From assembly GCA_963740755.1 (NCBI GenBank), contig CAVUFJ010000011.1, forward strand, positions 80,822-144,821: DNA of 64,000 nt. The letters are read 5' to 3'. Positions 2-59,745 of the stretch are shown here, one piece after another. Both the position numbers and the translations under genes were made by a program. The stretch's first letter is position 1; every line of letters starts with the position of its first letter. The notes beneath the pieces were generated by a model. That model saw nothing but the letters and a program-made list of their open reading frames with translations, made no database searches and was not told the origin of the DNA. This DNA is from Rhodothermales bacterium. Lineage in GTDB: Bacteria > Bacteroidota > Rhodothermia > Rhodothermales > BA12.

Positions 2-451
2 CCCTACTACGACTACGGGGTGGAGCTGAGCGCGCCCAGCCGGGGCGTGGTCGTGTGGGCGATGCTGCGCGAGATCGGGGCGGAGGGGATGCGGGCGCGC
101 GTCGTGCGCCACAACGACCTCGCGCAGCGCGTGGCTGAGGCGGCGCGGCGCCATCCGAACCTCGAACTCCTGCTCGAACCCACCCTCTCGATCTGCTGCT
201 TTCGCTACGTCGCCCCCGGCGTGGACGACCTCGACCGCCTGAACCAGCGGCTCCACCGGCGGCTGCTGCGCGAGAACCAGAACCTCCCCAGCACCACGCA
301 GGTCAACGGGAAGCTCGCGCTGCGCCCGTGCTTTGTGGGCGCCCGCACCGAGACCGCCCATGCCGACGCGCTCGTGGCCGATGTGCTCCGCATCGGCGCA
401 GAGGTGGCGGCTGAGATGCAGCCCCACGCCCTGGCGGGCGGAGGCACCTGA
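2..451 (+). CDS. C-terminal fragment of a pyridoxal-phosphate-dependent (group II) amino-acid decarboxylase; the 5' end lies outside the window
   Basis: In-frame translation PYYDYGVELSAPSRGVVVWAMLREIG...LSICCFRY matches the conserved C-terminal domain of DOPA/glutamate/diaminobutyrate decarboxylase-type enzymes. The ORF runs open from the window edge. Confidence 0.55.
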   Translation, partial: PYYDYGVELSAPSRGVVVWAMLREIGAEGMRARVVRHNDLAQRVAEAARRHPNLELLLEPTLSICCFRYVAPGVDDLDRLNQRLHRRLLRENQNLPSTTQVNGKLALRPCFVGARTETAHADALVADVLRIGAEVAAEMQPHALAGGGT

Positions 452-750
452 TACCAGATCCGGCTGTAGCGTGTGTCATTGCGAGGAGCGCAGCGACGAA
501 GCAATCTCCCTATTCAGGGGCCGTAGGAGGGGATTGCTTCGCTGCGCTCGCAATGACAGCACCAACTCCTCCACCGGCGTTGGTATGATACCAGATCCGG
601 TGGAATCGTGAGGGATGACCGGGTCACGGATCATGGATCATGGTCAGAGACGCTCCGAGGCACCTCTGGCTATGATCCATGATCCCGCAGGCATTCCTGT
701 ACCCTTGGCCGGATTTGGGATGACGGGTGGCCTGCGCGGAGGCGTGAACG
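452..750. repeat. Composite intergenic repeat (R1). It has two direct copies of gataccagatccgg (456-469 and 587-600) around an ~87-bp imperfect hairpin (474-562), followed by a GATC-rich core gatcatggatcatggtcagagacgctccgaggcacctctggctatgatccatgatcccgcaggcattcc (628-705).
   Basis: Direct reading. The core recurs at 2647-2745, and in inverse orientation at 38343-38500 and 58108-58212. Confidence 0.7.
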
Positions 751-850
751 CGTGGGTTTTGCCAGGGGCAGCGCCTTCGGGTGCGGAGCAGGCGCGGATG
801 TTCGTACGCTTGGGCGGTTGCCCGTCGTTGCTCTGCTATCCTCCCGCGCC

Positions 851-2539
851 ATGCTCTGCCGCCGCCTGCTCCGCTGCCCGCTCGTCGCCCTGGTGCTTCT
901 GTGCGCCGCCGCGCCCCTTCAGGCGCAAACGCCCCTCGCGCACGACGCCGGCCCCACGCGCGCCGACACGCTGCGCGGCTCGATCACGCCCGAGCGGGCC
1001 TGGTGGGACGTCACGTTCTACGACCTTCACGTCGCCGTCAGCCCCGCCGACAGCAGCATCCGGGGCAGCAGCGCCGTCACCTACCGCGTGGTTGATGCCG
1101 CGCGCGTGCTCCAGCTCGACCTCCAGGCGCCCCTCGTGCTCGACAGCGTCGTGCAGCGCGGGCGCCGCCTCGCCGTGCGGCACGACGGCGCGGCCCACTT
1201 CGTCGCCATCACGGCGCCGCAGGTGAAGGGCGCCCTCGAAACCGTGACGGCCTACTACCACGGGCGGCCCCGCGTGGCGAAGCGGGCCCCGTGGGATGGG
1301 GGCTTCGTGTGGACAGCAGGACAGCCTCGGCAACGCCTGGGTCGCCACGGCCGTGCAGGGCCTCGGCGCGAGCGCGTGGTGGCCGACGAAAGACACGCAG
1401 GCCGACGAGCCCGACTGGCAGCGCGTCGCCATCACGGTGCCGAGCGGGATGATGGACGTGTCGAACGGCCGCCTCCGTCGCACGACGCGCAACGCCGACG
1501 GCACGACCACCTACGAGTGGGCCGTCGCGCAACCCCATCAACAACTACAACGTGGCCGTCAACGCCGGCCGCTACGCCCACTTCAGCGACACCTCTGCGG
1601 GTGAATCCGGCGCCGCTCACGCTCGACTTCTACCCCCTCGCCTACCACGAGGCGAAGGCGCGGCGGCACTTCGCGCAGGACGTGAAGCCGATGCTCGCGT
1701 GCTTCGAGGGCTGGTTCGGGCCGTATCCGTGGTACGAAGACGGCTACAAGCTCGTCGAGACGCCGCACCTGGGCATGGAGCACCAGAGCGCCGTGGCCTA
1801 CGGCAACCACTACGGCAACGGCTACCTCGGGCGCGACCTCTCGCGTACCGGGCGCGGCCTCACGTGGGACTTTATCGTCGTCCACGAGAGCGCCCACGAG
1901 TGGTGGGGCAACAGCATCACCACCGACGACGTGGCCGACATGTGGGTCCACGAGGCGTTCGCCAACTATGCCGAGAACCTGTACGTGGAGTGCCGGCAAG
2001 GCAAAGCGGCCGGGCGCTGAGTACGTGATCGGCACCCGCGCGAACATCCGCGAACGACGTGCCGATCGTGGGGCCGTACGGCGTCAACGCGGAAGGCTCG
2101 GGCGACATGTACTACAAGGGCGGCAACCTGCTGCACACGCTCCGGCAGACTCGTGGGCGACGACGCGCGGTGGCGCGCGGTCCTGCGCGGCCTGCAGTCC
2201 GAGTTTCGCCACCAGACGATCACGGGCCGCGACGTGGAGCGCTACATCGCCCGCCACGCCGACCTCGACCTCGCGCCCATCTTCGACCAGTACCTCCGCA
2301 CGACGCAGATTCCCACGCTCGAATACCGCACCGAGGGCAGCACGCTCTTCTACCGCTGGGCCGACGTGGTGCAGGATTTCGCCATGCGCCTCCCCGCCAC
2401 GCTCACCGCCGATGGCGTCTTTACCTCCCTCCGCCCTACGACGGCGTGGCAGACGACGCAGGCCACGCTGCCCGGTGGCGCGTTGAAGGTGGACCCCAAC
2501 TACTACGTCCGCGTCCGGCGCCTCGAACCGGGACGGTGA
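851..2539 (+). CDS. Secreted M1-family zinc metallopeptidase (aminopeptidase N-like), broken by at least four frameshifts
   Basis: Signal peptide MLCRRLLRCPLVALVLLCAAAPLQA. HEXXH-E zinc motif VHESAHEWWGN...EAFANY. Homology continues through frames 752-1320, 1296-1560, 1552-2028 and 2059-2539. Apparent single-base indels near 1310, 1550, 2035 and 2150. Confidence 0.8.
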
Positions 2540-2646
2540 GCGGAAAAAGGCAGGCGCGCATCGGTACGCGTGGTTCTATGTTCAGGGGCATTCTCAGGGC
2601 AGGCCACGAGGATGCGGTTCATCCCAACGCTGGTAGCATGGGCAAG

Positions 2647-2745
2647 GATCACCGGGTTGATCCCCGATCATGGTCAGAGATGCCCCCATGTGCCCGCTGG
2701 CGATGATCCATCCTCCATGATCCCGCAGGCCTTCCCGCACCGCCC
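2647..2745. repeat. R2 copy of the GGTCAGAGA / GATC-rich repeat family, same orientation as R1
   Basis: gatcaccgggttgatccccgatcatggtcagagatgcccc...ctggcgatgatccatcctccatgatcccgcaggccttcc shares the R1 core. It is the reverse complement of the R4 core. Confidence 0.7.
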
Positions 2746-2774
2746 GGCCCGATGTGGTCTGAACCCTCCTGTGC

Positions 2775-24568: not shown

Positions 24569-24578
24569 ATCCGAGCGT

Positions 24579-24745
24579 TCACCCGAGCCAGGTGGTCAGC
24601 AGATAGAGGAGCGCGCCGACGAGACCGCCCACCAGCGTGCCGTTGATGCGGATCCACTGCGGACCTTGCCGACGGCGACTTCGATGCGGTCAGGCGACGG
24701 CCTCGGCGGGCCAGTGCTCGATCGTGTCGCGCATGCCCCTGCACG
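24579..24745 (-). pseudogene. Displaced, diverged fragment of a DUF445 gene 3' end (~85% identical to 25438-25610); it keeps the native stop codon
   Basis: Minus-strand translation ...[38 protein letters not shown] against ...[42 protein letters not shown] in the intact gene. Confidence 0.55.
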
Positions 24746-25035: not shown

Positions 25036-25460
25036 ACGTCGTCGATTCCTCCGGATGGCTCGAATACTTCGCCGGGAGCGCCCGGGCGGACTTTTTCGCC
25101 CCTGCCATTGAGGACACGGCAGCGCTCGTTGTGCCGGTGGATCACGCTTTATGAGGTGTACAAGCGCGTACGCCAGCAGCGCAGTGAGATTGAAGACGTT
25201 TACAGGCGGTCGGGGAAATGCAGCAAGGCCGTCTTGTCGATCTCGATAGGAGCCTCGCCCTACGGGCCGCCCAACTGAGTCTCGCGCATCGCCTCCCCAT
25301 GGCGGACAGCCTGATCTTGGCGACGGCGCGGGCCCTGGAGGCAGAACTCTGGACCCAAAACGCTCACTTCGAGGGACTCGCCGGGGACGATATCAGCGTA
25401 AAGCGTGAGCCGCAAGCTCGCGCGGACGCCGTGCAGCCGAGCCAGGTGGTGAGCAGGTAG
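25032..25460 (+). CDS. vapC: PIN-domain toxin (VapC-like) with two frameshifts; its 3' end overlaps the DUF445 gene convergently
   Basis: [35 protein letters not shown]...YEVYKRV...[49 protein letters not shown]. Confidence 0.65.
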
Positions 25461-26637
25461 AGGAGGGCGCCGACGAGGCCGCCCACGAGGGTGCCGTTGA
25501 TGCGGATCCACTGGAGGTCTTTGCCGACGGCCACCTCGATGCGGTCCGAGACCGGCTTCAGCGGGCCAGCGCTCGATGGTGTCGCGGATGAGGTCGGGGA
25601 TGCGCTGCCCGTGCTCTTGGATGGCCCACGCGGCGGCGGCGGCCACCTTCTCGTTGACGGCGTGCTGGAACGCCTCGTCTTCGAGCATCGAGCGGCCGAA
25701 CTCCACGCCGCGCGCTTCGAGAAAGCCGAAGATGGCCGAGTCCTCGTCGTGCAGGTCGCGCACGAGAAAGCCCTTGAAGTCGCCCCAGCGCTCGACGGCG
25801 AAGTCGCGCAGGGCCGGGTTTTCGAGCACGCGGTCGCGGAGGGCGTCCACCTTGGCCTGCATGGCCGGGTCGTGGTCGAGGCGCTCCAGGAATTCCTGCA
25901 CGCGCTCGTGGATGCGCACGCGCAGCGGGTTCTCGCGGTCGGAGAGCATCGCCTGGATCGTGGTGTCGATCTTGCCCATCACGGCGTCGGTGACGAGGTC
26001 GGCGGCGAAGACGGCGATGAGGCTCGGCATCTGCGCGCGCACGACGTCGTAGATGGCGTCGCGGTTGGCGGCGGCCACGCTCGCGGCGCCCTGGAGCACC
26101 TCGTCGAGCAGGTCTTCGTGCTGCCCGTCGCGCGCGAGGCCGAGGAGCAGGTCGGAGAGCTTGGGCGCCAGGGCGACCTCCCGGAGGCGCGGGATCACCT
26201 CGCGGTCCGAGAACTCGCGGATGCGCCCGTCCGAGAGGCCGTCCACCGCCCCTTCGATCATCCCCACGATGCGCGTGCGCAGGCTTCGCACGTGCCCCGG
26301 CGTTTCGAGCCAGCGCCCGGCGATCTCGGCGAAGTTGATCCGCTCGATGCGCGGCAGCACGTTCTCGGGCGTCAGAAACTGCCCGCCCGACGAAGTTGCC
26401 GAGCGCGTTGCCGAGGCGGGCCTTGCGCTCGGGGATGATGGCCGTGTGGGGGATCGGCACGCCGAGCGGGTGCCGGAAGAGCGCCGTGACGGCGAACCAG
26501 TCGGCGAGGGCGCCCACCATGGAGGCCTCGAAGAAGGCGGCGAAGAGGCCCGTCCAGAAGTTGCGGGGCAGGGCAAAGTGGCACACGAGAAAGCCCACCG
26601 CCGCCGCCACGAGAAACCCGAGCGCGATGCGCTTCAT
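25438..26637 (-). CDS. DUF445-family membrane protein (YjiN-like) with at least two frameshifts; the stop codon is missing, so the ORF reads about 23 codons into antisense vapC
   Basis: [24 protein letters not shown]...[20 protein letters not shown]...[10 protein letters not shown]. One extra G at 26393. ...[28 protein letters not shown] with no stop after it. Confidence 0.6.
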
Positions 26638-31138: not shown

Positions 31139-31166
31139 CACCAGAGGAGGCCGGGGCGTGGGCGCG

Positions 31167-31373
31167 TAGGGGCAAAGCATCCGCTGTGCGGCCACCGGCC
31201 TCCGCAGCGCTCCGCTCATGGCAACGGTGCCGCGCAATGCCCCGCCCGGATGCTTCGCCCGCACCGCCCGGCATGGTGGGCAAAGCATCGGGGTGGGGCC
31301 ACGGGCAGAGGCGTTGCCGCAGGTGGGGGCGGGGCCGCGGGCAGGGGCTTCACAGCGGATGCTTTGCCCCTAC
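31167..31373. repeat. GC-rich nested-palindrome element, copy 1. The outer inverted repeat is GTAGGGGCAAAGCATCCGCTGTG paired with CACAGCGGATGCTTTGCCCCTAC.
   Basis: Direct reading. The related copy is at 52140-52350. Confidence 0.75.
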
Positions 31374-31392
31374 GGATGGCGTCTTGGGGCGC

Positions 31393-33419: not shown

Positions 33420-34100
33420 TTACCAGCCTTTGCGCTTTTGGCTGCGTCCGTGCCCCTTGCCGCCATGCCCCTTGCTGTGTTTCGCGGGGGCCCGCCGCGT
33501 GGTCGTCGCCGGACGCGGGGTGGGCGTCCGGGCGGGCGTCACGGTGCGCGGGCGGCTCGGCGTCGGGGCGGGCGCGGCGCGGGCCACCGGCGTTGCGGCG
33601 TCGCTCGGGGCTGCGGTGACGCTCGGCGGGGCGGTGGCGTCGCCGAGCGTGTCGGCGCGAATGGCGGCGTAGGCCTCGGGGCGCCACACGTTCATCGCCA
33701 TCGTGTAGAAGAGGACGGTGCCGAGCGGCAGGCCGGTCGTCGGGGCGTCCCAGGCCGCGCCGGGCGCATCCGGGGCCCGCGCCTCGATGGGCAGGGGCGC
33801 GGCTGCCACGCGGGCGCGGAGCGAGTCGGGCACGTCGAGGCGCGCGGCAAAGGCATCCGGGGTGGTGAGGCGTTCGGTGGTGCTGTCGAGGTGGTGGATC
33901 ACGACGACGGTGGCCGAGTCCACGAGCAGCTCGCGTGCGATCACGTAGCGATCCGGGCGGATCTCCTCCACCGTCGAGCGCACGCCCTGCGCGCCTGGGA
34001 TCGGGGTCTGCCGGGCTGCGGTGCGTCGCTCTCCACACCCCCCTATCATCAGCCCCAGCAGGAGGGCGCCGAGGGCGGCAGAGCGTCGGAAAGGCAACAT
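33420..34100 (-). CDS. Hypothetical lipoprotein with a Pro/Thr/Ala-rich C-terminus
   Basis: LLGLMIGGCG lipobox. No recognised domain. Confidence 0.4.
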   Translation of the reverse strand: MLPFRRSAALGALLLGLMIGGCGERRTAARQTPIPGAQGVRSTVEEIRPDRYVIARELLVDSATVVVIHHLDSTTERLTTPDAFAARLDVPDSLRARVAAAPLPIEARAPDAPGAAWDAPTTGLPLGTVLFYTMAMNVWRPEAYAAIRADTLGDATAPPSVTAAPSDAATPVARAAPAPTPSRPRTVTPARTPTPRPATTTRRAPAKHSKGHGGKGHGRSQKRKGW

Positions 34101-38198: not shown

Positions 38199-38435
38199 AT
38201 GCACGTCGTTTCGCTCGATGAAGCCGGTGAGCACCTTGACGGCCTGATCGACGAGGCACTCCAAGGAAACGTGGTCATCATCAGACGCGATGATGGCTTC
38301 GTGGTACAGCTCGTGCCGGTAATCGAGCGCGATGCTACAGAGGATCTGATACCAGATCCGGCCGATGAGTACGGGAAGGTCCCCTCGATCATTGATGATG
38401 GATCATGGCCAGAGAGCACATCTGGGCGTCTCTGA
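38199..38435 (+). CDS. Orphan Phd/YefM-like antitoxin; its 3' third is encoded by repeat R3 and no toxin gene follows
   Basis: MHVVSLDEAGEHLDGLIDEALQGNVVIIRRDDGFVVQLVPV resembles Phd/YefM N-termini. Downstream ...DLIPDPADEYGKVPSIIDDGSW is the translated repeat. Confidence 0.35.
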   Translation: MHVVSLDEAGEHLDGLIDEALQGNVVIIRRDDGFVVQLVPVIERDATEDLIPDPADEYGKVPSIIDDGSWPESTSGRL

Positions 38436-38500
38436 CCATGATCAATGATCCGTGATCAACCCGGTGATCCCTGACCAAGCTACCGGAGTTGGTATGACAA
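38343..38500. repeat. R3 copy of the GGTCAGAGA / GATC-rich repeat family, inverse orientation
   Basis: gatctgataccagatccgg...gatcatggccagagagcacatctgggcgtctctgaccatgatcaatgatccgtgatcaacccggtgatcc...accggagttggtatga. Confidence 0.7.
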
Positions 38501-51996: not shown

Positions 51997-52139
51997 CAGG
52001 CGCAGGTAGAGGCCCCTCCCGAACCCGGTGGTAGCACACCGTTTCCGGGTGACAGGCCGGTATCCCTCGCGTCTACACACGCCGGTCACACGTCCGTTGC
52101 ACCCGCCCCCGTTATCGCCCGCCCCCATCGTCGCGCGTA

Positions 52140-52350
52140 GGGGCGAAGCCTCCGCTGTGCGGCGCCTGCCCGTCGTGCGGCTCCCTGCGCCGCAACGGCA
52201 CGCGCGTTGTCCCGGTGCGAGGCTTCGCCCAACTCCTGCCACCGGGGGCGATGCGGGCGAAGCCTCGCGCCAGGACCATGGGCAGGGCCGTTGCCGCGTC
52301 GGGCGGCGGGGCCGCGCGCGGAGGCGGCACAGCGGAGGCTTCGCCCCTAC
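52140..52350. repeat. GC-rich nested-palindrome element, copy 2. Outer inverted repeat GTAGGGGCGAAGCCTCCGCTGTG paired with CACAGCGGAGGCTTCGCCCCTAC. Inner pairs cgaggcttcgccc / gggcgaagcctcg and gcaacggc / gccgttgc.
   Basis: Direct reading. Same architecture as 31167-31373, with compensated base differences. Confidence 0.75.
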
Positions 52351-52400
52351 GCGGTCGGCGGTACGGCGGTGGTATGTTGGGGCGGATGCCATCCCTGCCC

Positions 52401-57048: not shown

Positions 57049-57441
57049 GTGAAACTCCGCATCAAAGGCGACACGCTCCGCCTCCGCCTCACCCAGCCCG
57101 AAGTGGCCCTGTTCGCCGCCGAAGGCTGCGTGGAAGACGCCCTGCACGTGGCCCCCGGCGCCGCGCTGCGCTACCGCCTCTACGCCGACCCGGAGGCGAC
57201 CGCGCTCGGGGCCGTCTGGAACGGCAGTCTGCTCACCGTCGTCGTGCCGGAAGGCTGGGCGCGGCCGTGGGCGGAGGGCAACGAGGTGGGCGTCGAGGGC
57301 GCGCAGGCCGCCGGCGAGGGGCACACGCTCACCCTGCTCGTCGAGAAAGACTTTGCCTGCCTCCACGAGGCGCGCGACGAGCCCGGCGCCTTCCCCAACC
57401 CCTTCTCCGACGTGCCGGGCTACGTGGATGCGGATGACTGA
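57049..57441 (+). CDS. Hypothetical protein; its last ~17 codons (AFPNPFSDVPGYVDADD) recur in the downstream duplicated fragment
   Basis: Intact 130-aa ORF in an operon position. No recognised domain. Confidence 0.4.
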   Translation: MKLRIKGDTLRLRLTQPEVALFAAEGCVEDALHVAPGAALRYRLYADPEATALGAVWNGSLLTVVVPEGWARPWAEGNEVGVEGAQAAGEGHTLTLLVEKDFACLHEARDEPGAFPNPFSDVPGYVDADD

Positions 57442-57487
57442 CGCGCAGCGCGGCGGTGGGGCGGGGAGGGCAGACGCGGCGGGGAGC

Positions 57488-58072
57488 ATGGTCACGGCGC
57501 GCCGTGCCCCGACCCACATCCCGCCGGGCGACGTCACCGGGCTGATCCTTGCGGGTGGGCACAGCCGCCGCTTCGGGCGCGACAAGGCCCTCGCGGAGGT
57601 GGACGGCGTGCCGCTCGTGGCGCGCGTGTACGACGCCCTGGCTCCCCACTGCGCGGAGGTACTGATCGCCACCGGGGCCACGCCGCGCGCCTACCCCGTG
57701 CCCGCACGCGTCGTGCTGGATGCGGTGCCGGAGGCGGGGCCGCTCGCCGGACTCCTCGCCGGGCTGGCGGCAGCGCGCACGCCGTGGCTGCTCGTGGCCG
57801 CCTGCGACCTCGCGGGCCTCACGCCGGCCGCGCTGGCCTCGCTGCTGCGCGGGGCTGCGCCGGACGTGGACGCGGTGGTGGCCGTGGATGCAGATGGGCG
57901 GCGCCAGCCCGTGTGCGCGCTGTACCGCGCCGAGGCCGTGGCGCCGGTGGCCGCGATGCACCTCGCCGCAGGCCGCCGGGCGCTCCACGCGCTGCTCGAT
58001 GCGCTCACGGTCTGCGAGGTCGCACTCGATCCTGTGGCCCTGCGCAACGCCAACACCTCCGAAGACCTTTGA
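57488..58072 (+). CDS. mobA: Molybdenum cofactor guanylyltransferase
   Basis: LILAGGHSRRFGRDKALAEVDGVPLV...ACDLAGLTPAAL.... Confidence 0.8.
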   Translation: MVTARRAPTHIPPGDVTGLILAGGHSRRFGRDKALAEVDGVPLVARVYDALAPHCAEVLIATGATPRAYPVPARVVLDAVPEAGPLAGLLAGLAAARTPWLLVAACDLAGLTPAALASLLRGAAPDVDAVVAVDADGRRQPVCALYRAEAVAPVAAMHLAAGRRALHALLDALTVCEVALDPVALRNANTSEDL

Positions 58073-58107
58073 CCCCAACGCCGGCCGCCTGGTGCGGGAA
58101 GGTCCAC

Positions 58108-58212
58108 TGGATCATGCATCATCGCCAGAAGACCGCTCCGGGCATCTCTGACCATGATCGGGGATCAACCCGATGATCTCCCATGATGCGACCGGAGTTG
58201 GGATGACCCCTA
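58108..58212. repeat. R4 copy of the GGTCAGAGA / GATC-rich repeat family, inverse orientation
   Basis: gatcatgcatcatcgccagaagaccgctccgggcatctctgaccatgatcggggatcaacccgatgatctcccatgatgcgaccggagttgggatga. Confidence 0.7.
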
Positions 58213-59373: not shown

Positions 59374-59454
59374 AGGAGCCGGGGCGTATCCAAAGATAAC
59401 TGGCGCTACCCACGAAAAAGCCGCCCCGGTGCAGAACCGCGTCGCGCGACGAGC

Positions 59455-59745
59455 CGGACGCCTTCCCCACCCCCTTTGCCAACGTGCCCGGCTACGTGGA
59501 TGCCGACGACGGTAGGGGCGGGGTTAACCACGCCCTACCGCATCCTGGTGCTGCCGGGCGACTTCGGGCACGACAAGGCCCTCGCACGCGTGGCCGGGGT
59601 GTCGCGCGTGGCGCGCCTCTACGACGCCCCCGCGCCCCACTGCGCCGAGGTGCTCCTCGCCACGGGCGCCGCGTGCCTCCCCGGTGGCCGCGCGTGTCGT
59701 GCTCGATAACGCCAACACCCCGGCCGATCTGTTCGGAAGCGCTTT
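59455..59745 (+). pseudogene. Decayed partial duplicate of the 57390-58072 segment (3' end of the hypothetical gene plus an internally deleted mobA)
   Basis: AFPTPFANVPGYVDADD then ...LVLPGDFGHDKALARVAGVSRVARLYDAPAPHCAEVLLATGA...NANTPADL, parallel to mobA's GGHSRRFGRDKALAEVDGVPLVARVYDALAPHCAEVLIATGA...NANTSEDL. Confidence 0.55.

What the first reader, a model, noticed from the sequence alone, without database searches (positions are those of the whole stretch)
628..705. GATC-rich GGTCAGAGA...TCTCTGACC intergenic repeat family with four copies in two orientations
Copies at 628-705 and 2647-2745 (one orientation) and 38343-38500 and 58108-58212 (reverse) share several blocks. These include gatcatggtcagaga / tctctgaccatgatc, gatcaacccg(g/a)tgatc, atgatccatgatcccgcaggc(a/c)ttcc and accggagttgg(t/g)atga. 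Each core is an imperfect palindrome centred on CAGAGA...TCTCTG. The copies are packed with GATC tetramers, up to about eight in 150 bp. Every copy lies just downstream of a gene end: the decarboxylase, the M1 peptidase, the ettA/antitoxin pair, and mobA with the pRiA4 gene. They behave like REP/BIME-type or MITE-like elements, but the sequence matches no family known to me. The GATC density raises the possibility of a methylation- or SeqA-like binding cluster.
Basis: seen in the sequence. Interest (0 to 1): 0.55.

Follow-up and report, generated by a model that had tools for sequence, protein, structure and literature searches.

The report
Small palindromic mobile-element family at gene ends
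The GATC-rich repeats are real and are best read as a new but ordinary family of about 140-base non-coding "hitch-hiker" transposable elements (MITE-like) in an uncultured Rhodothermales bacterium; their one unusual trait is that several sit exactly on the TGA stop codon of the neighbouring gene.

Summary
Four copies of one 137-151 nt imperfect palindrome lie at 586-723(+), 2619-2762(+), 38347-38497(-) and 58070-58206(-). They are 71-79% identical. All four carry the core GATCATGGTCAGAGAYGC unchanged. GATC density is 9.5 times that of the rest of the window.

- Each copy ends in 15-nt terminal inverted repeats (TSAYMCCARNNCCGG).
- A fifth element at 449-588 abuts copy 1. It has the same termini but an unrelated palindromic interior.
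- Four of the five elements are bracketed by direct TGA...TGA. Two of those TGAs are the native stop codons of the upstream genes, a PLP decarboxylase and a MobA-like gene.

There is no covariation supporting an RNA structure, and two copies have decayed hairpins. There is no Rfam match at threshold. I found no copies in public genome, metagenome, viral, plasmid or phage collections, nor in about 65 kb from the nearest relatives. The source MAG itself is not searchable.

Best reading: a lineage-restricted MITE-like family, probably inserting at TGA with a 3-bp duplication. The REP/BIME and methylation/SeqA readings are not supported. A possible link to elements in Longimicrobium and Planctomycetota that share the terminus and also abut stop codons is suggestive but biased by my search pattern. 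It is a new member of a known kind, of modest interest.

The parts
449..588 (+). Element A': 140 nt. It has the same termini as the GATC-rich copies (TGATACCAGATCCGG ... CCGGCGTTGGTATGA) but an unrelated, single-copy palindromic interior. It abuts c1 and shares the TGA at 586-588.
   Evidence: terminus pattern hits; DNA fold z = -6.07; interior is unique in the window.
586..723 (+). Copy c1 of the GATC-rich family, 138 nt. It is the best-preserved hairpin.
   Evidence: (RNA fold -78.3 kcal/mol, z = -6.7).
628..685 (+). Apical stem-loop of c1: GGATCATGGATCATGGTCAGAGAC / loop / CTCTGGCTATGATCCATGATCC. The left arm carries the 15-nt block that is invariant in all four copies.
   Evidence: longest invariant run 15 columns, column-shuffle p = 0.0025.
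2619..2762 (+). Copy c2, 144 nt, with a decayed hairpin. It lies 80 nt after the M1 peptidase stop (2537-2539) and 13 nt before the ATG of the pyridine-nucleotide disulphide oxidoreductase (2775). It is the only element with TCA...TGA flanks.
   Evidence: (z = +0.9 and +0.7).
38347..38497 (-). Copy c3, 151 nt. It has one extra GATCATN heptamer in each arm and 7 GATC sites. It lies within the 3' part of a weak Phd/YefM-like ORF (38199-38435), downstream of the ABC-F (EttA-like) gene.
   Evidence: (z = -4.2).
58070..58206 (-). Copy c4, 137 nt, with a partly decayed hairpin. It fills the gap between convergent genes. Its first 3 nt (58070-72, TGA) are the MobA-like gene's stop codon. The pRiA4_ORF3/DUF6398 gene's stop (58210-12) is 3 nt beyond its other end.
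   Evidence: (MobA C-terminus ends in the same alignment column as its closest homologues).
449..451 (+). TGA that is both the stop codon of the PLP-dependent decarboxylase ORF (20-451) and the outermost trinucleotide of element A'. The matching flanking trinucleotides are 586-588, 721-723, 2760-2762, 38347-49, 38495-97, 58070-72 and 58204-06 (all TGA on the + strand) and 2619-21 (TCA).
   Evidence: the decarboxylase is not truncated: the conserved region ends at residue ~139 of 149, and homologue tails run 1-14 aa.

Best explanation
These are copies of a lineage-restricted, non-autonomous transposable element (MITE-like) in an uncultured Rhodothermales genome. Each element is a 137-151 nt fold-back bounded by ~15-nt terminal inverted repeats (consensus T-S-A-Y-M-CCA-R-N-N-CCGG).

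Inferred mechanism: a transposase encoded elsewhere in the genome recognises the termini, which explains why an element with a wholly different interior (449-588) shares them. Insertion most likely occurs at a TGA (T-S-A) trinucleotide and duplicates it. An insertion into a TGA stop codon therefore regenerates the stop and leaves the protein intact, which would explain why copies survive precisely at gene 3' ends.

The GATC richness is a by-product of a GATCATN heptamer array in both arms of the ancestral sequence. The invariant apical stem (GATCATGGTCAGAGA / TCTCTGRCCATGATC) is probably a protein-binding site needed for mobilisation. This last point is inference only.

Once inserted, copies decay (c2 and c4). 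Any effect on the host gene, such as a stable 3' hairpin starting at the stop codon, would be incidental.

Shown: the repeat family, the terminal repeats, the flanking TGAs, the coincidence with stop codons, the decay, and the lack of covariation. Inferred: transposition, the identity of the transposase, and the target duplication.
For: - Four homologous copies in both orientations, plus a fifth element sharing only the termini.
- The terminus pattern gives 9 hits against 1.3 expected, and every hit lies at an element end.
- Flanking trinucleotides are direct TGA...TGA in 4 of 5 elements. A' and c1 are joined through a single shared TGA, as expected if one inserted into the other's duplicated target.
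- The TGA at 58070-72 is MobA's native stop: the protein ends in the same alignment column as its closest homologues.
- The decarboxylase ending at 449-451 is not truncated.
- Element GC is 54-63% against 70.6% for the window. Copies are only 71-79% identical. Two of the four no longer fold better than shuffles. This is the pattern of decaying selfish DNA.
- There is no support for a selected RNA structure: 1 compensatory pair out of 34.
- No Rfam family reaches threshold.
- No copies occur in ~65 kb from relatives at 68-76% amino-acid identity or in public collections. This fits the usual genus-level restriction of prokaryotic MITE families (PMC11602168).
- Clustering and mutual insertion of such elements is known for BOX, RUP and SPRITE (PMC10969869).
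- A 3-nt insertion site is described for the IS1031 group of the IS5 family (PMC2516522).
Against: - No transposase or full-length IS with these termini is in the window: all terminus hits belong to the five elements.
- No empty site or insertion polymorphism could be examined.
- Only five elements are available. If the middle base of T-S-A were free, 4 of 5 direct repeats would not be significant (p about 0.19). The stronger signal is 9 of 10 termini reading TGA on the + strand.
- c2 has TCA...TGA.
- The three possibly related elements in other phyla (L007-L009) lack a 3-bp direct repeat. A TA...TA parse (IS630-like) fits L008, L009, A' and c3 instead.
- The 15-nt invariant core within otherwise 71-79% identical copies (p = 0.0025) shows sequence-level constraint that pure post-insertion decay does not explain.
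Confidence: 0.7

Rival explanations
1. REP/BIME or REPIN-type element. The palindromes would be mobilised by a REP-associated tyrosine transposase (RAYT) acting on single-stranded hairpins, without target duplication. The host would use them for mRNA 3'-end stabilisation, termination or nucleoid-protein binding.
For: The elements are intergenic, palindromic and occur in both orientations at gene 3' ends. A GTAG tetranucleotive-style tag (the tetranucleotide GTAG) lies just inside the terminus in A', c2 and c3. A second family that looks more REP/BIME-like, with GTAG...CTAC tags, exists in the same window at 31163-31374 and 52134-52353. The possibly related elements L008 and L009 lack a direct repeat.
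Against: The units are 137-151 nt with 15-nt terminal inverted repeats, not 20-40 nt hairpins. GTAG is absent from c1 and c4 and does not sit at a hairpin foot. Direct TGA flanks occur in 4 of 5 elements. No RAYT could be looked for outside the window.
Confidence: 0.1
2. A host-selected cis-acting RNA element: a 3'-UTR hairpin that terminates transcription, protects mRNA from 3' exonucleases, or hinders the ribosome at the stop codon. It would have spread or been retained because of that function.
For: c1, c3 and A' have very stable hairpins (z = -6.7, -4.2 and -6.1). They start at or next to stop codons. The apical stem is conserved while its loop varies. From my own knowledge, REP hairpins within ~15 nt of a stop codon reduce translation of the upstream gene in E. 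coli (Liang, Rudd and Deutscher 2015).
Against: The elements occur in both orientations relative to the upstream gene. Only 1 of 34 pairs shows a compensatory change, and G.U versus A.C events show no clear asymmetry (about 6 against 4). c2 and c4 no longer fold better than shuffled sequence. No U-tract follows any copy (read directly). No Rfam family reaches threshold. The host genes are functionally unrelated.
Confidence: 0.1
3. A GATC cluster with a DNA-level role: a Dam-type methylation or hemimethylation sensor, or a SeqA-like sequestration site. A narrower version is GATC sites that couple transposition to replication, as in IS10 and IS50.
For: GATC is enriched 9.5-fold in the elements, and several GATCs are invariant in all copies. 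One GATC lies inside the terminal repeat itself (CCAGATCCGG). From my own knowledge, this is where Dam sites regulate IS10, IS50 and IS903.
Against: The four copies share one ancestor, so the enrichment is a single event. The GATCs arise from a GATCATN heptamer, with spacings of 7, 12 and 14 nt rather than helical-phase spacing. A' has only one GATC, so GATC richness is not needed for the element type. Window-wide GATC frequency is near expectation. No Dam homologue lies in the window (weak evidence). From my own knowledge, SeqA and MutH are confined to some Gammaproteobacteria, whereas this is a Rhodothermales genome.
Confidence: 0.07
4. Chance similarity, assembly artefact, or integron attC-type recombination sites.
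For: The assembly appears to carry indel errors, or else a pseudogene (frame shifts in the M1 peptidase gene). attC sites are also imperfect palindromes just after gene ends with conserved ends and variable interiors, and some termini contain CCAAC / GTTGG.
Against: Shuffle controls give 0 of 100. The four copies are diverged (71-79% identity) and lie in different, unique contexts, so they are not a collapsed or duplicated assembly segment. The termini do not fit RYYYAAC / GTTRRRY consistently (half are CCAGATCC). The neighbours are ordinary chromosomal genes, not cassettes.
Confidence: 0.02

Closest known systems
Prokaryotic MITEs in general (e.g. Correia/NEMIS of Neisseria, ERIC of enterobacteria, RUP of pneumococcus, QMITEs of Coxiella)
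   Same: They are 100-200 nt, non-coding, with terminal inverted repeats and short flanking direct repeats. They fold into long hairpins, are mostly intergenic, occur in both orientations, cluster or nest with other elements, and are usually restricted to a genus (PMC10969869, PMC11602168, PMC3184786).
   Different: There is no sequence similarity to any of them that I could detect. The autonomous partner is unknown. The flanking repeat is TGA rather than the TA of Correia and ERIC. The interior is a GATCATN heptamer array. Several copies sit exactly on TGA stop codons.
IS5-family IS1031 group and the related eukaryotic PIF/Harbinger-Tourist elements
   Same: They use a 3-nt insertion site and duplication (PMC2516522 for the IS1031 group; PMC2213677 and PMC4482050 for the 3-bp TSD of PIF/Harbinger). 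From my own knowledge the site is typically T-N-A, which TGA/TCA would fit.
   Different: No transposase is linked to these elements. From memory, the terminal repeat sequence does not resemble IS5-family ends, but I did not test this. The assignment is only a lead.
IS630/Tc1-mariner-derived MITEs (TA duplication)
   Same: If the termini are parsed as TA|CCAGATCCGG...CCGG..TGG|TA, then A', c3, L008 and L009 have TA...TA flanks and ends starting with CCAG. From my own knowledge this is typical of the superfamily.
   Different: In the window family the TA positions vary (TA, GA, TC, CC) while the outer TGA is invariant. c1 and c4 do not fit.
REP/BIME and REPINs
   Same: They are extragenic palindromes at gene 3' ends, with possible effects on mRNA stability and on translation termination.
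   Different: REPs are 20-40 nt with a GTAG or CGTC tag (PMC3733652) and depend on RAYTs (PMC2817692), without a target duplication. Here the units are ~140 nt with 15-nt terminal repeats and direct TGA flanks.
MIRUs of Mycobacterium (my own knowledge)
   Same: They are intergenic repeats whose ends overlap the stop codon of the upstream gene.
   Different: MIRUs are 40-100 nt direct tandem units containing short ORFs. They are not fold-back elements with terminal inverted repeats.
Dam-regulated IS ends (IS10, IS50, IS903; my own knowledge)
   Same: A GATC lies inside the terminal repeat (CCAGATCCGG).
   Different: Nothing here shows methylation or regulation. The GATC is absent from the CCAAC-type termini.

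Membership tests
MITE (miniature inverted-repeat transposable element) | Small size (about 50-800 bp) and no coding capacity | tested here: met
   The elements are 137-151 nt. No ORF is shared between copies. The only ORF running into a copy (38199-38435 into c3) is incidental.
MITE (miniature inverted-repeat transposable element) | Terminal inverted repeats of at least 10-15 bp | tested here: met
   The 15-nt termini TSAYMCCARNNCCGG give 9 hits against 1.3 expected, all at element ends. The tenth terminus (c2 right) is degenerate.
MITE (miniature inverted-repeat transposable element) | Target-site duplication flanking each copy | tested here: inconclusive
   Direct TGA...TGA occurs in 4 of 5 elements, and A' and c1 share one TGA. 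However n = 5, c2 is TCA...TGA, and the alternative TA parse fits some copies. No empty site is available.
MITE (miniature inverted-repeat transposable element) | Multiple dispersed copies in the genome | tested here: met
   There are 4 homologous copies plus 1 terminus-sharing element at four separate loci in 64 kb. The genome-wide count is not obtainable because the source contig is not searchable.
MITE (miniature inverted-repeat transposable element) | An autonomous IS with the same termini, encoding the transposase | not testable with these tools
   None is in the window. The rest of the genome is unavailable, ISfinder is unavailable, and pattern searches cannot span an IS-length gap.
MITE (miniature inverted-repeat transposable element) | Insertion polymorphism (filled versus empty sites between strains) | not testable with these tools
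   The nearest available relatives are only 68-76% identical in protein and are not syntenic at the insertion sites. They carry no copies.
REP / BIME / REPIN | Unit is a 20-40 nt imperfect palindrome with a GTAG or CGTC tag at its foot | tested here: not met
   The units are 137-151 nt. GTAG is present in 3 of 5 elements, 16-20 nt from the end, and not at a hairpin foot.
REP / BIME / REPIN | Associated RAYT gene and more than 100 copies per genome | not testable with these tools
   Only 64 kb of the genome is available.
Any Rfam RNA family | Score at or above the family's gathering threshold | tested here: not met
   There are 0 matches in the whole window. In E-value mode, the c-type copies give only miRNA-model noise, and c3 gives none.
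SAH riboswitch RF01057 (for element A' only) | Gathering score of 37 bits, pseudoknot-forming 3' segment, and location upstream of SAH-recycling genes | tested here: not met
   The score is 29.8 bits with a 29-nt insertion in the P2 loop. The 3' segment falls in the terminal repeat. The downstream gene is an M1 peptidase.
Integron attC site | RYYYAAC ... GTTRRRY core sites flanking an imperfect palindrome, within a cassette array | tested here: not met
   Half the termini are CCAGATCC and the rest fit only loosely. The neighbours are ordinary chromosomal genes.
Dam/SeqA-type GATC cluster | GATC methylation in the organism, and GATC pairs in helical phase bound by SeqA | not testable with these tools
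   There are no methylation data. Spacings are 7, 12, 14 and 35-46 nt. No Dam homologue lies in the window.

The most novel reading that the evidence does not exclude
The terminus TGATACCAG(A/C)TCCGG may mark a cross-phylum superfamily of fold-back elements (Rhodothermales, Longimicrobium/Gemmatimonadota, Planctomycetota). These would integrate specifically at TGA stop codons. Because the TGA is regenerated or supplied by the element end, the insertion would be a coding-neutral 'safe harbour'. It would also place a very stable hairpin directly at the translation stop, where it could modulate termination or mRNA decay of the upstream gene.

Support: native stop codons coincide with the element's first three bases in four unrelated genes. 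These are the PLP decarboxylase and MobA in the window, pdxH in L008, and a VTT/DedA gene in L007, plus the convergent ORF at L007's other end.

Caveats: my search pattern forced T-S-A at that end of L007-L009. An unforced metagenome scan found no such elements. A plain TGA target combined with purifying selection would give the same picture.
Probability: 0.2. Interest if true: 0.5.

Novelty: new member of a known kind. Interest (0 to 1): 0.28.

Why it matters
As a MITE family it matters mostly for annotation. It explains four GATC-dense intergenic hairpins and one neighbouring hairpin in this MAG. It warns against calling the ORF extension at 38199-38435 a real C-terminus. It also gives a marker for strain typing in an uncultured Rhodothermales lineage.

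The part worth a specialist's attention is the exact abutment to native TGA stop codons. If genome-wide data confirm TGA-targeted insertion with stop-codon regeneration, it would be a neat example of a transposable element minimising its own cost. It would also be a natural system for asking what a ~20-bp-plus hairpin starting at the stop codon does to termination and ribosome rescue.

Tried and rejected
1. Exact search for the core (GATCATGGTCAGAGAN{10,22}CTGGCNATGAT) found 0 hits in genome contigs and 0 in metagenome contigs.
2. Looking up the source contig by exact protein failed for the oxidoreductase and for P0001. The listing of cluster members gave no name or accession. A genome-wide count was therefore impossible.
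3. The terminus-based genome scan gave 10 hits. Seven look like chance matches in coding sequence. Three are true hairpins (L007-L009).
4. The symmetric-terminus metagenome scan returned 22 loci. They are heterogeneous and none has T or TGAT before ACCAG, so they give no support for a wider family.
5. Two viral scans found 0 hits.
6. nhmmer and the terminus regex found nothing on ~65 kb from relatives (L001-L004, L037-L040).
7. blastn against plasmids found no match. Against phages it found only 29-38 nt matches to the A' interior in unrelated gut and Helicobacter phages, treated as chance.
8. I reconstructed an 'empty-site' antitoxin by removing c3 plus one TGA. This restores a 63-aa ORF. A homology search found nothing, so the reconstruction is untested.
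9. RNAalifold covariation gave 1 compensatory pair out of 34, so there is no evidence for a selected RNA structure.
10. The SAH-riboswitch reading of A' was rejected. It is below threshold and in the wrong context.
11. The attC reading was rejected on the core-site pattern and the context.
This is uninformative for the genome.
13. Literature searches for a described Rhodothermales repeat, or for MITEs at stop codons, found nothing specific.
Full report
**Observation.** A MAFFT alignment of the four, with c3 and c4 reverse-complemented, shows homology over about 140-150 nt.
- The 18-mer GATCATGGTCAGAGAYGC occurs without mismatch in all four copies. Hits within 3 mismatches number 5, against 0.06 expected from shuffles. 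The fifth hit is the opposite arm of c1.
- An nhmmer profile of the four copies finds only these loci in the window, at E 1e-46 to 1e-53. It also finds their own reverse strands, which reflects the palindromy.
- GATC density is 36.8 per kb inside the copies against 3.9 per kb elsewhere. The copies account for four of the five windows of 150 nt with at least 5 GATC. Over the whole window GATC is near expectation (266 against 240 +/- 13).

Terminal repeats. The homology extends outwards to 15-nt terminal inverted repeats. The pattern TSAYMCCARNNCCGG, allowing one mismatch, hits nine times against 1.3 expected, and every hit is an element end. This sets the bounds at 586-723 (c1), 2619-2762 (c2), 38347-38497 (c3) and 58070-58206 (c4).

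A fifth element. Two further hits, at 449 and 574, bound another 140-nt element that I call A' (449-588).
- Its left terminus is identical to those of c1 and c3 (TGATACCAGATCCGG).
- Its right terminus is CCGGCGTTGGTATGA.
- Its interior is a different, single-copy palindrome. As DNA it folds with z = -6.07.
- A' and c1 are joined through one shared TGA at 586-588.

Interior. The four GATC-rich copies have arms built from GATCATN heptamers. GATC spacings of 7, 12 and 14 nt recur. The length differences between copies are two 7-column indels, one in each arm.

Divergence. Pairwise identity is 71-79%. Element GC is 54-63%, against 70.6% for the window.

Folding. c1 and c3 fold far better than shuffled sequence (RNA z = -6.7 and -4.2). 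c4 does so only weakly (z = -2.4 as RNA, -0.8 as DNA). c2 does not (z = +0.9 and +0.7).

**Flanks.** Read on the window's + strand, the outermost trinucleotides are as follows:

| Element | Left | Right |
|---|---|---|
| A' | TGA | TGA |
| c1 | TGA | TGA |
| c2 | TCA | TGA |
| c3 | TGA | TGA |
| c4 | TGA | TGA |

If these bases were simply part of the inverted repeat, they should read TGA...TCA. Four of five are direct repeats instead, which is what a 3-bp target duplication gives. The single TGA shared by A' and c1 is what insertion of one element into the other's duplicated target would leave.

With five elements this is only suggestive. If the middle base were free, 4 of 5 direct repeats has p of about 0.19. 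The bias of 9 of 10 termini towards TGA on one strand is stronger, at about 0.02.

An alternative parse with a TA duplication (TA|CCAG...TGG|TA) fits A' and c3 but not c1 or c4. In this family the TA positions vary while the TGA does not.

**Relation to genes.**
- PLP-decarboxylase ORF. It ends at 449-451, so its stop codon is the first three bases of A'. The protein is not truncated. Its conserved region ends about ten residues before the stop, and homologues have tails of 1-14 residues.
- MobA-like gene. It ends at 58070-72, the first three bases of c4. In an alignment with its closest homologues it stops in exactly the same column as P0122, P0126 and P0136, so this is the native stop.
- c4's other side. 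The convergent pRiA4_ORF3/DUF6398 gene stops 3 nt beyond the other end of c4. Removing c4 and one TGA would leave two convergent genes 3 nt apart.
- c2. It lies 80 nt after the M1 peptidase stop. That gene is frame-shifted in this assembly. c2 also lies 13 nt before the oxidoreductase start codon.
- c3. It lies inside the 3' part of a weak Phd/YefM-like ORF (Pfam E = 0.01, below threshold), whose last ~29 codons are element sequence. Removing c3 and one TGA restores a 63-aa frame, but I found no homologues to test this.

**Is it an RNA?** There is no Rfam match at gathering threshold anywhere in the window. In E-value mode the GATC-rich copies give only noise.

A' gives a 29.8-bit hit to the SAH riboswitch, whose threshold is 37 bits. 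The hit has a 29-nt insertion, and the downstream gene is unrelated. I treat it as chance.

RNAalifold on the four copies predicts 34 pairs, of which only one shows a compensatory change. Wobble and A.C events are about balanced. The copies occur in both orientations relative to the upstream gene, no U-tract follows any of them, and two have lost their hairpin. None of this suggests a selected RNA structure.

There is nevertheless uneven conservation. The left arm of the apical stem is 17/18 invariant, the right arm 11/15, and the loop 2/11. A 15-column invariant run is unlikely under column shuffling (p = 0.0025). I take this as sequence-level constraint on the apical stem in the lineage of active copies, for example a protein-binding site. 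That is inference.

**Distribution.** Neighbouring proteins place the window in an uncultured Rhodothermales genome. The best named relatives are Rhodothermales, Rubricoccaceae and Rubrivirga. The nearest sequences are only 71-76% identical, and the 100% hits come from a 162,930-bp NCBI/ENA contig.

That contig is not in the searchable DNA collections.
- The core pattern has no exact match in 596 Gb of species-representative genomes or in the JGI metagenomes.
- About 65 kb from the closest available relatives contains no copy and no terminus.
- Plasmid, phage and viral collections give nothing relevant.

The family is therefore narrowly distributed, as is usual for prokaryotic MITE families (PMC11602168).

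**A possible wider family.** A scan for the termini alone (ACCAGATCCGG, a gap of 100-130 nt, then CCGGNNYTGGKRTSA) gave ten genome hits. Seven look like chance matches. Three are long, near-perfect hairpins of 135-160 nt with unrelated interiors:

| Locus | Source | Fold energy |
|---|---|---|
| L007 | Planctomycetota MAG | -121 kcal/mol |
| L008 | Longimicrobium MAG | -83 kcal/mol |
| L009 | Longimicrobium MAG | -67 kcal/mol |

- In L008 the element's first three bases are the stop codon of pdxH. Its Pfam C-terminal domain model (1-42 of 42) ends on the last residue.
- In L007 the two terminal trinucleotides are the stop codons of two convergent ORFs. One of these is a VTT/DedA protein.
- This echoes the decarboxylase and MobA cases in the window.

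The caveats are serious.
- My pattern forced T-S-A at that end.
- The unforced ends read TGA-C, CAA-T and TCG-T, so there is no 3-bp direct repeat.
- A symmetric-terminus scan of metagenomes, with free flanks, found only heterogeneous sequences and none with TGAT before ACCAG.

I regard homology with the window family as possible but unproven.

**Interpretation.** The best-supported reading is a non-autonomous, MITE-like transposable element family. It meets the criteria of size, non-coding nature, terminal inverted repeats and dispersed copies. The target duplication is likely but not secure. An autonomous partner and insertion polymorphism could not be tested.
- A shared-termini, different-interior element (A') is what one expects if only the termini are recognised by a transposase.
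- Tandem insertion and decay of older copies also fit. Clustering and mutual insertion are known for BOX, RUP and SPRITE (PMC10969869).
- A 3-nt insertion site points loosely to IS5-family (IS1031 group) or PIF/Harbinger-like transposases (PMC2516522, PMC2213677).
- The TA parse would point to the IS630 family. Neither assignment can be made here.

Survival at stop codons needs no special targeting. If the target is TGA and is duplicated, insertion into a TGA stop codon is coding-neutral. In a 70% GC genome, stop codons are a sizeable share of the TGA sites where insertion is tolerated. This is my rough estimate, not a computed value.

**Rivals.**
- REP/BIME/REPIN is disfavoured by the unit size, the lack of a consistent GTAG tag and the direct flanks.
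- A host-selected 3' hairpin is disfavoured by the orientation independence, the lack of covariation and the decayed copies. An incidental effect of a hairpin starting at the stop codon is still plausible. From my own knowledge, REP hairpins close to stop codons lower translation in E. coli (Liang, Rudd and Deutscher 2015).
- The methylation/SeqA idea has no support. The GATC excess is inherited from one heptamer-repeat ancestor, A' has a single GATC, and the spacing is not helical. SeqA is not expected outside Gammaproteobacteria (my own knowledge). The one point in its favour is a GATC inside the CCAGATCCGG terminus, where Dam sites regulate IS10 and IS50 (my own knowledge). Only methylome data can test that.

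**Verdict.** The element type is well known and the family is new but ordinary. The exact abutment to native TGA stop codons, possibly shared with elements in two other phyla, is the only feature that might repay further work.

Noticed in passing
window 31163-31374 and 52134-52353: A second, unrelated palindromic repeat family of ~212-220 nt. The two copies are ~70% identical to each other and to their own reverse complements. The ends are CGCGTAGGGGC(A/G)AAGC.TCCGCTGTG ... CACAGCGGA.GCTT.GCCCCTACG, i.e. tagged GTAG...CTAC, with internal GGGCAAAGCATC-type units in alternating orientation. This looks more REP/BIME-like than the finding itself.
   Followed up: partly
window 477-589 (+), interior of element A': Sub-threshold Rfam hit to the SAH riboswitch RF01057: 29.8 bits against a gathering score of 37, covering the full model, with a 29-nt insertion in the P2 loop. 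The downstream gene is an M1 peptidase, so I judged it chance similarity of a GC-rich palindrome.
   Followed up: yes
window 752-2539: The M1 peptidase gene is broken by frame shifts around 2020 and 2060-2150. The sensible protein continues in other frames to the TGA at 2537-2539. It is either a pseudogene or an indel error in the assembly. Many other genes in the window also appear fragmented in a GC3-based map.
   Followed up: partly
window 57366-57682 and 59438-59673: A fragment duplicating the upstream region and first ~80 codons of the mobA-like gene (81-85% nt identity) lies on the far side of c4 and the pRiA4_ORF3/DUF6398 gene. This suggests a past rearrangement or insertion at this locus.
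   Followed up: partly
L007 1829-1988; L008 1930-2069; L009 1085-1238: Long, near-perfect hairpin elements in Planctomycetota and Longimicrobium MAGs share the terminus TGATACCAG(A/C)TCCGGG. In L007 and L008 the terminal TGA/TCA are the stop codons of the flanking genes (VTT/DedA and a convergent ORF; pdxH).
   Followed up: partly
window 33850-34046: The only other place in the window with at least 5 GATC per 150 nt. It lies in coding-looking sequence and is unrelated to the repeat family.
   Followed up: no
window 24576-24735 and 25430-25590: Adjacent segments 854-855 nt apart with 81-90% nt identity, probably tandem paralogous genes (families D5, D9 and D14).
   Followed up: no
window 38199-38435: A short ORF with a weak Phd/YefM antitoxin-like N-terminus (Pfam E = 0.01, below threshold) and no toxin gene next to it. 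Its last ~29 codons are supplied by element c3, so an annotated C-terminus here would be an artefact of the insertion.
   Followed up: partly
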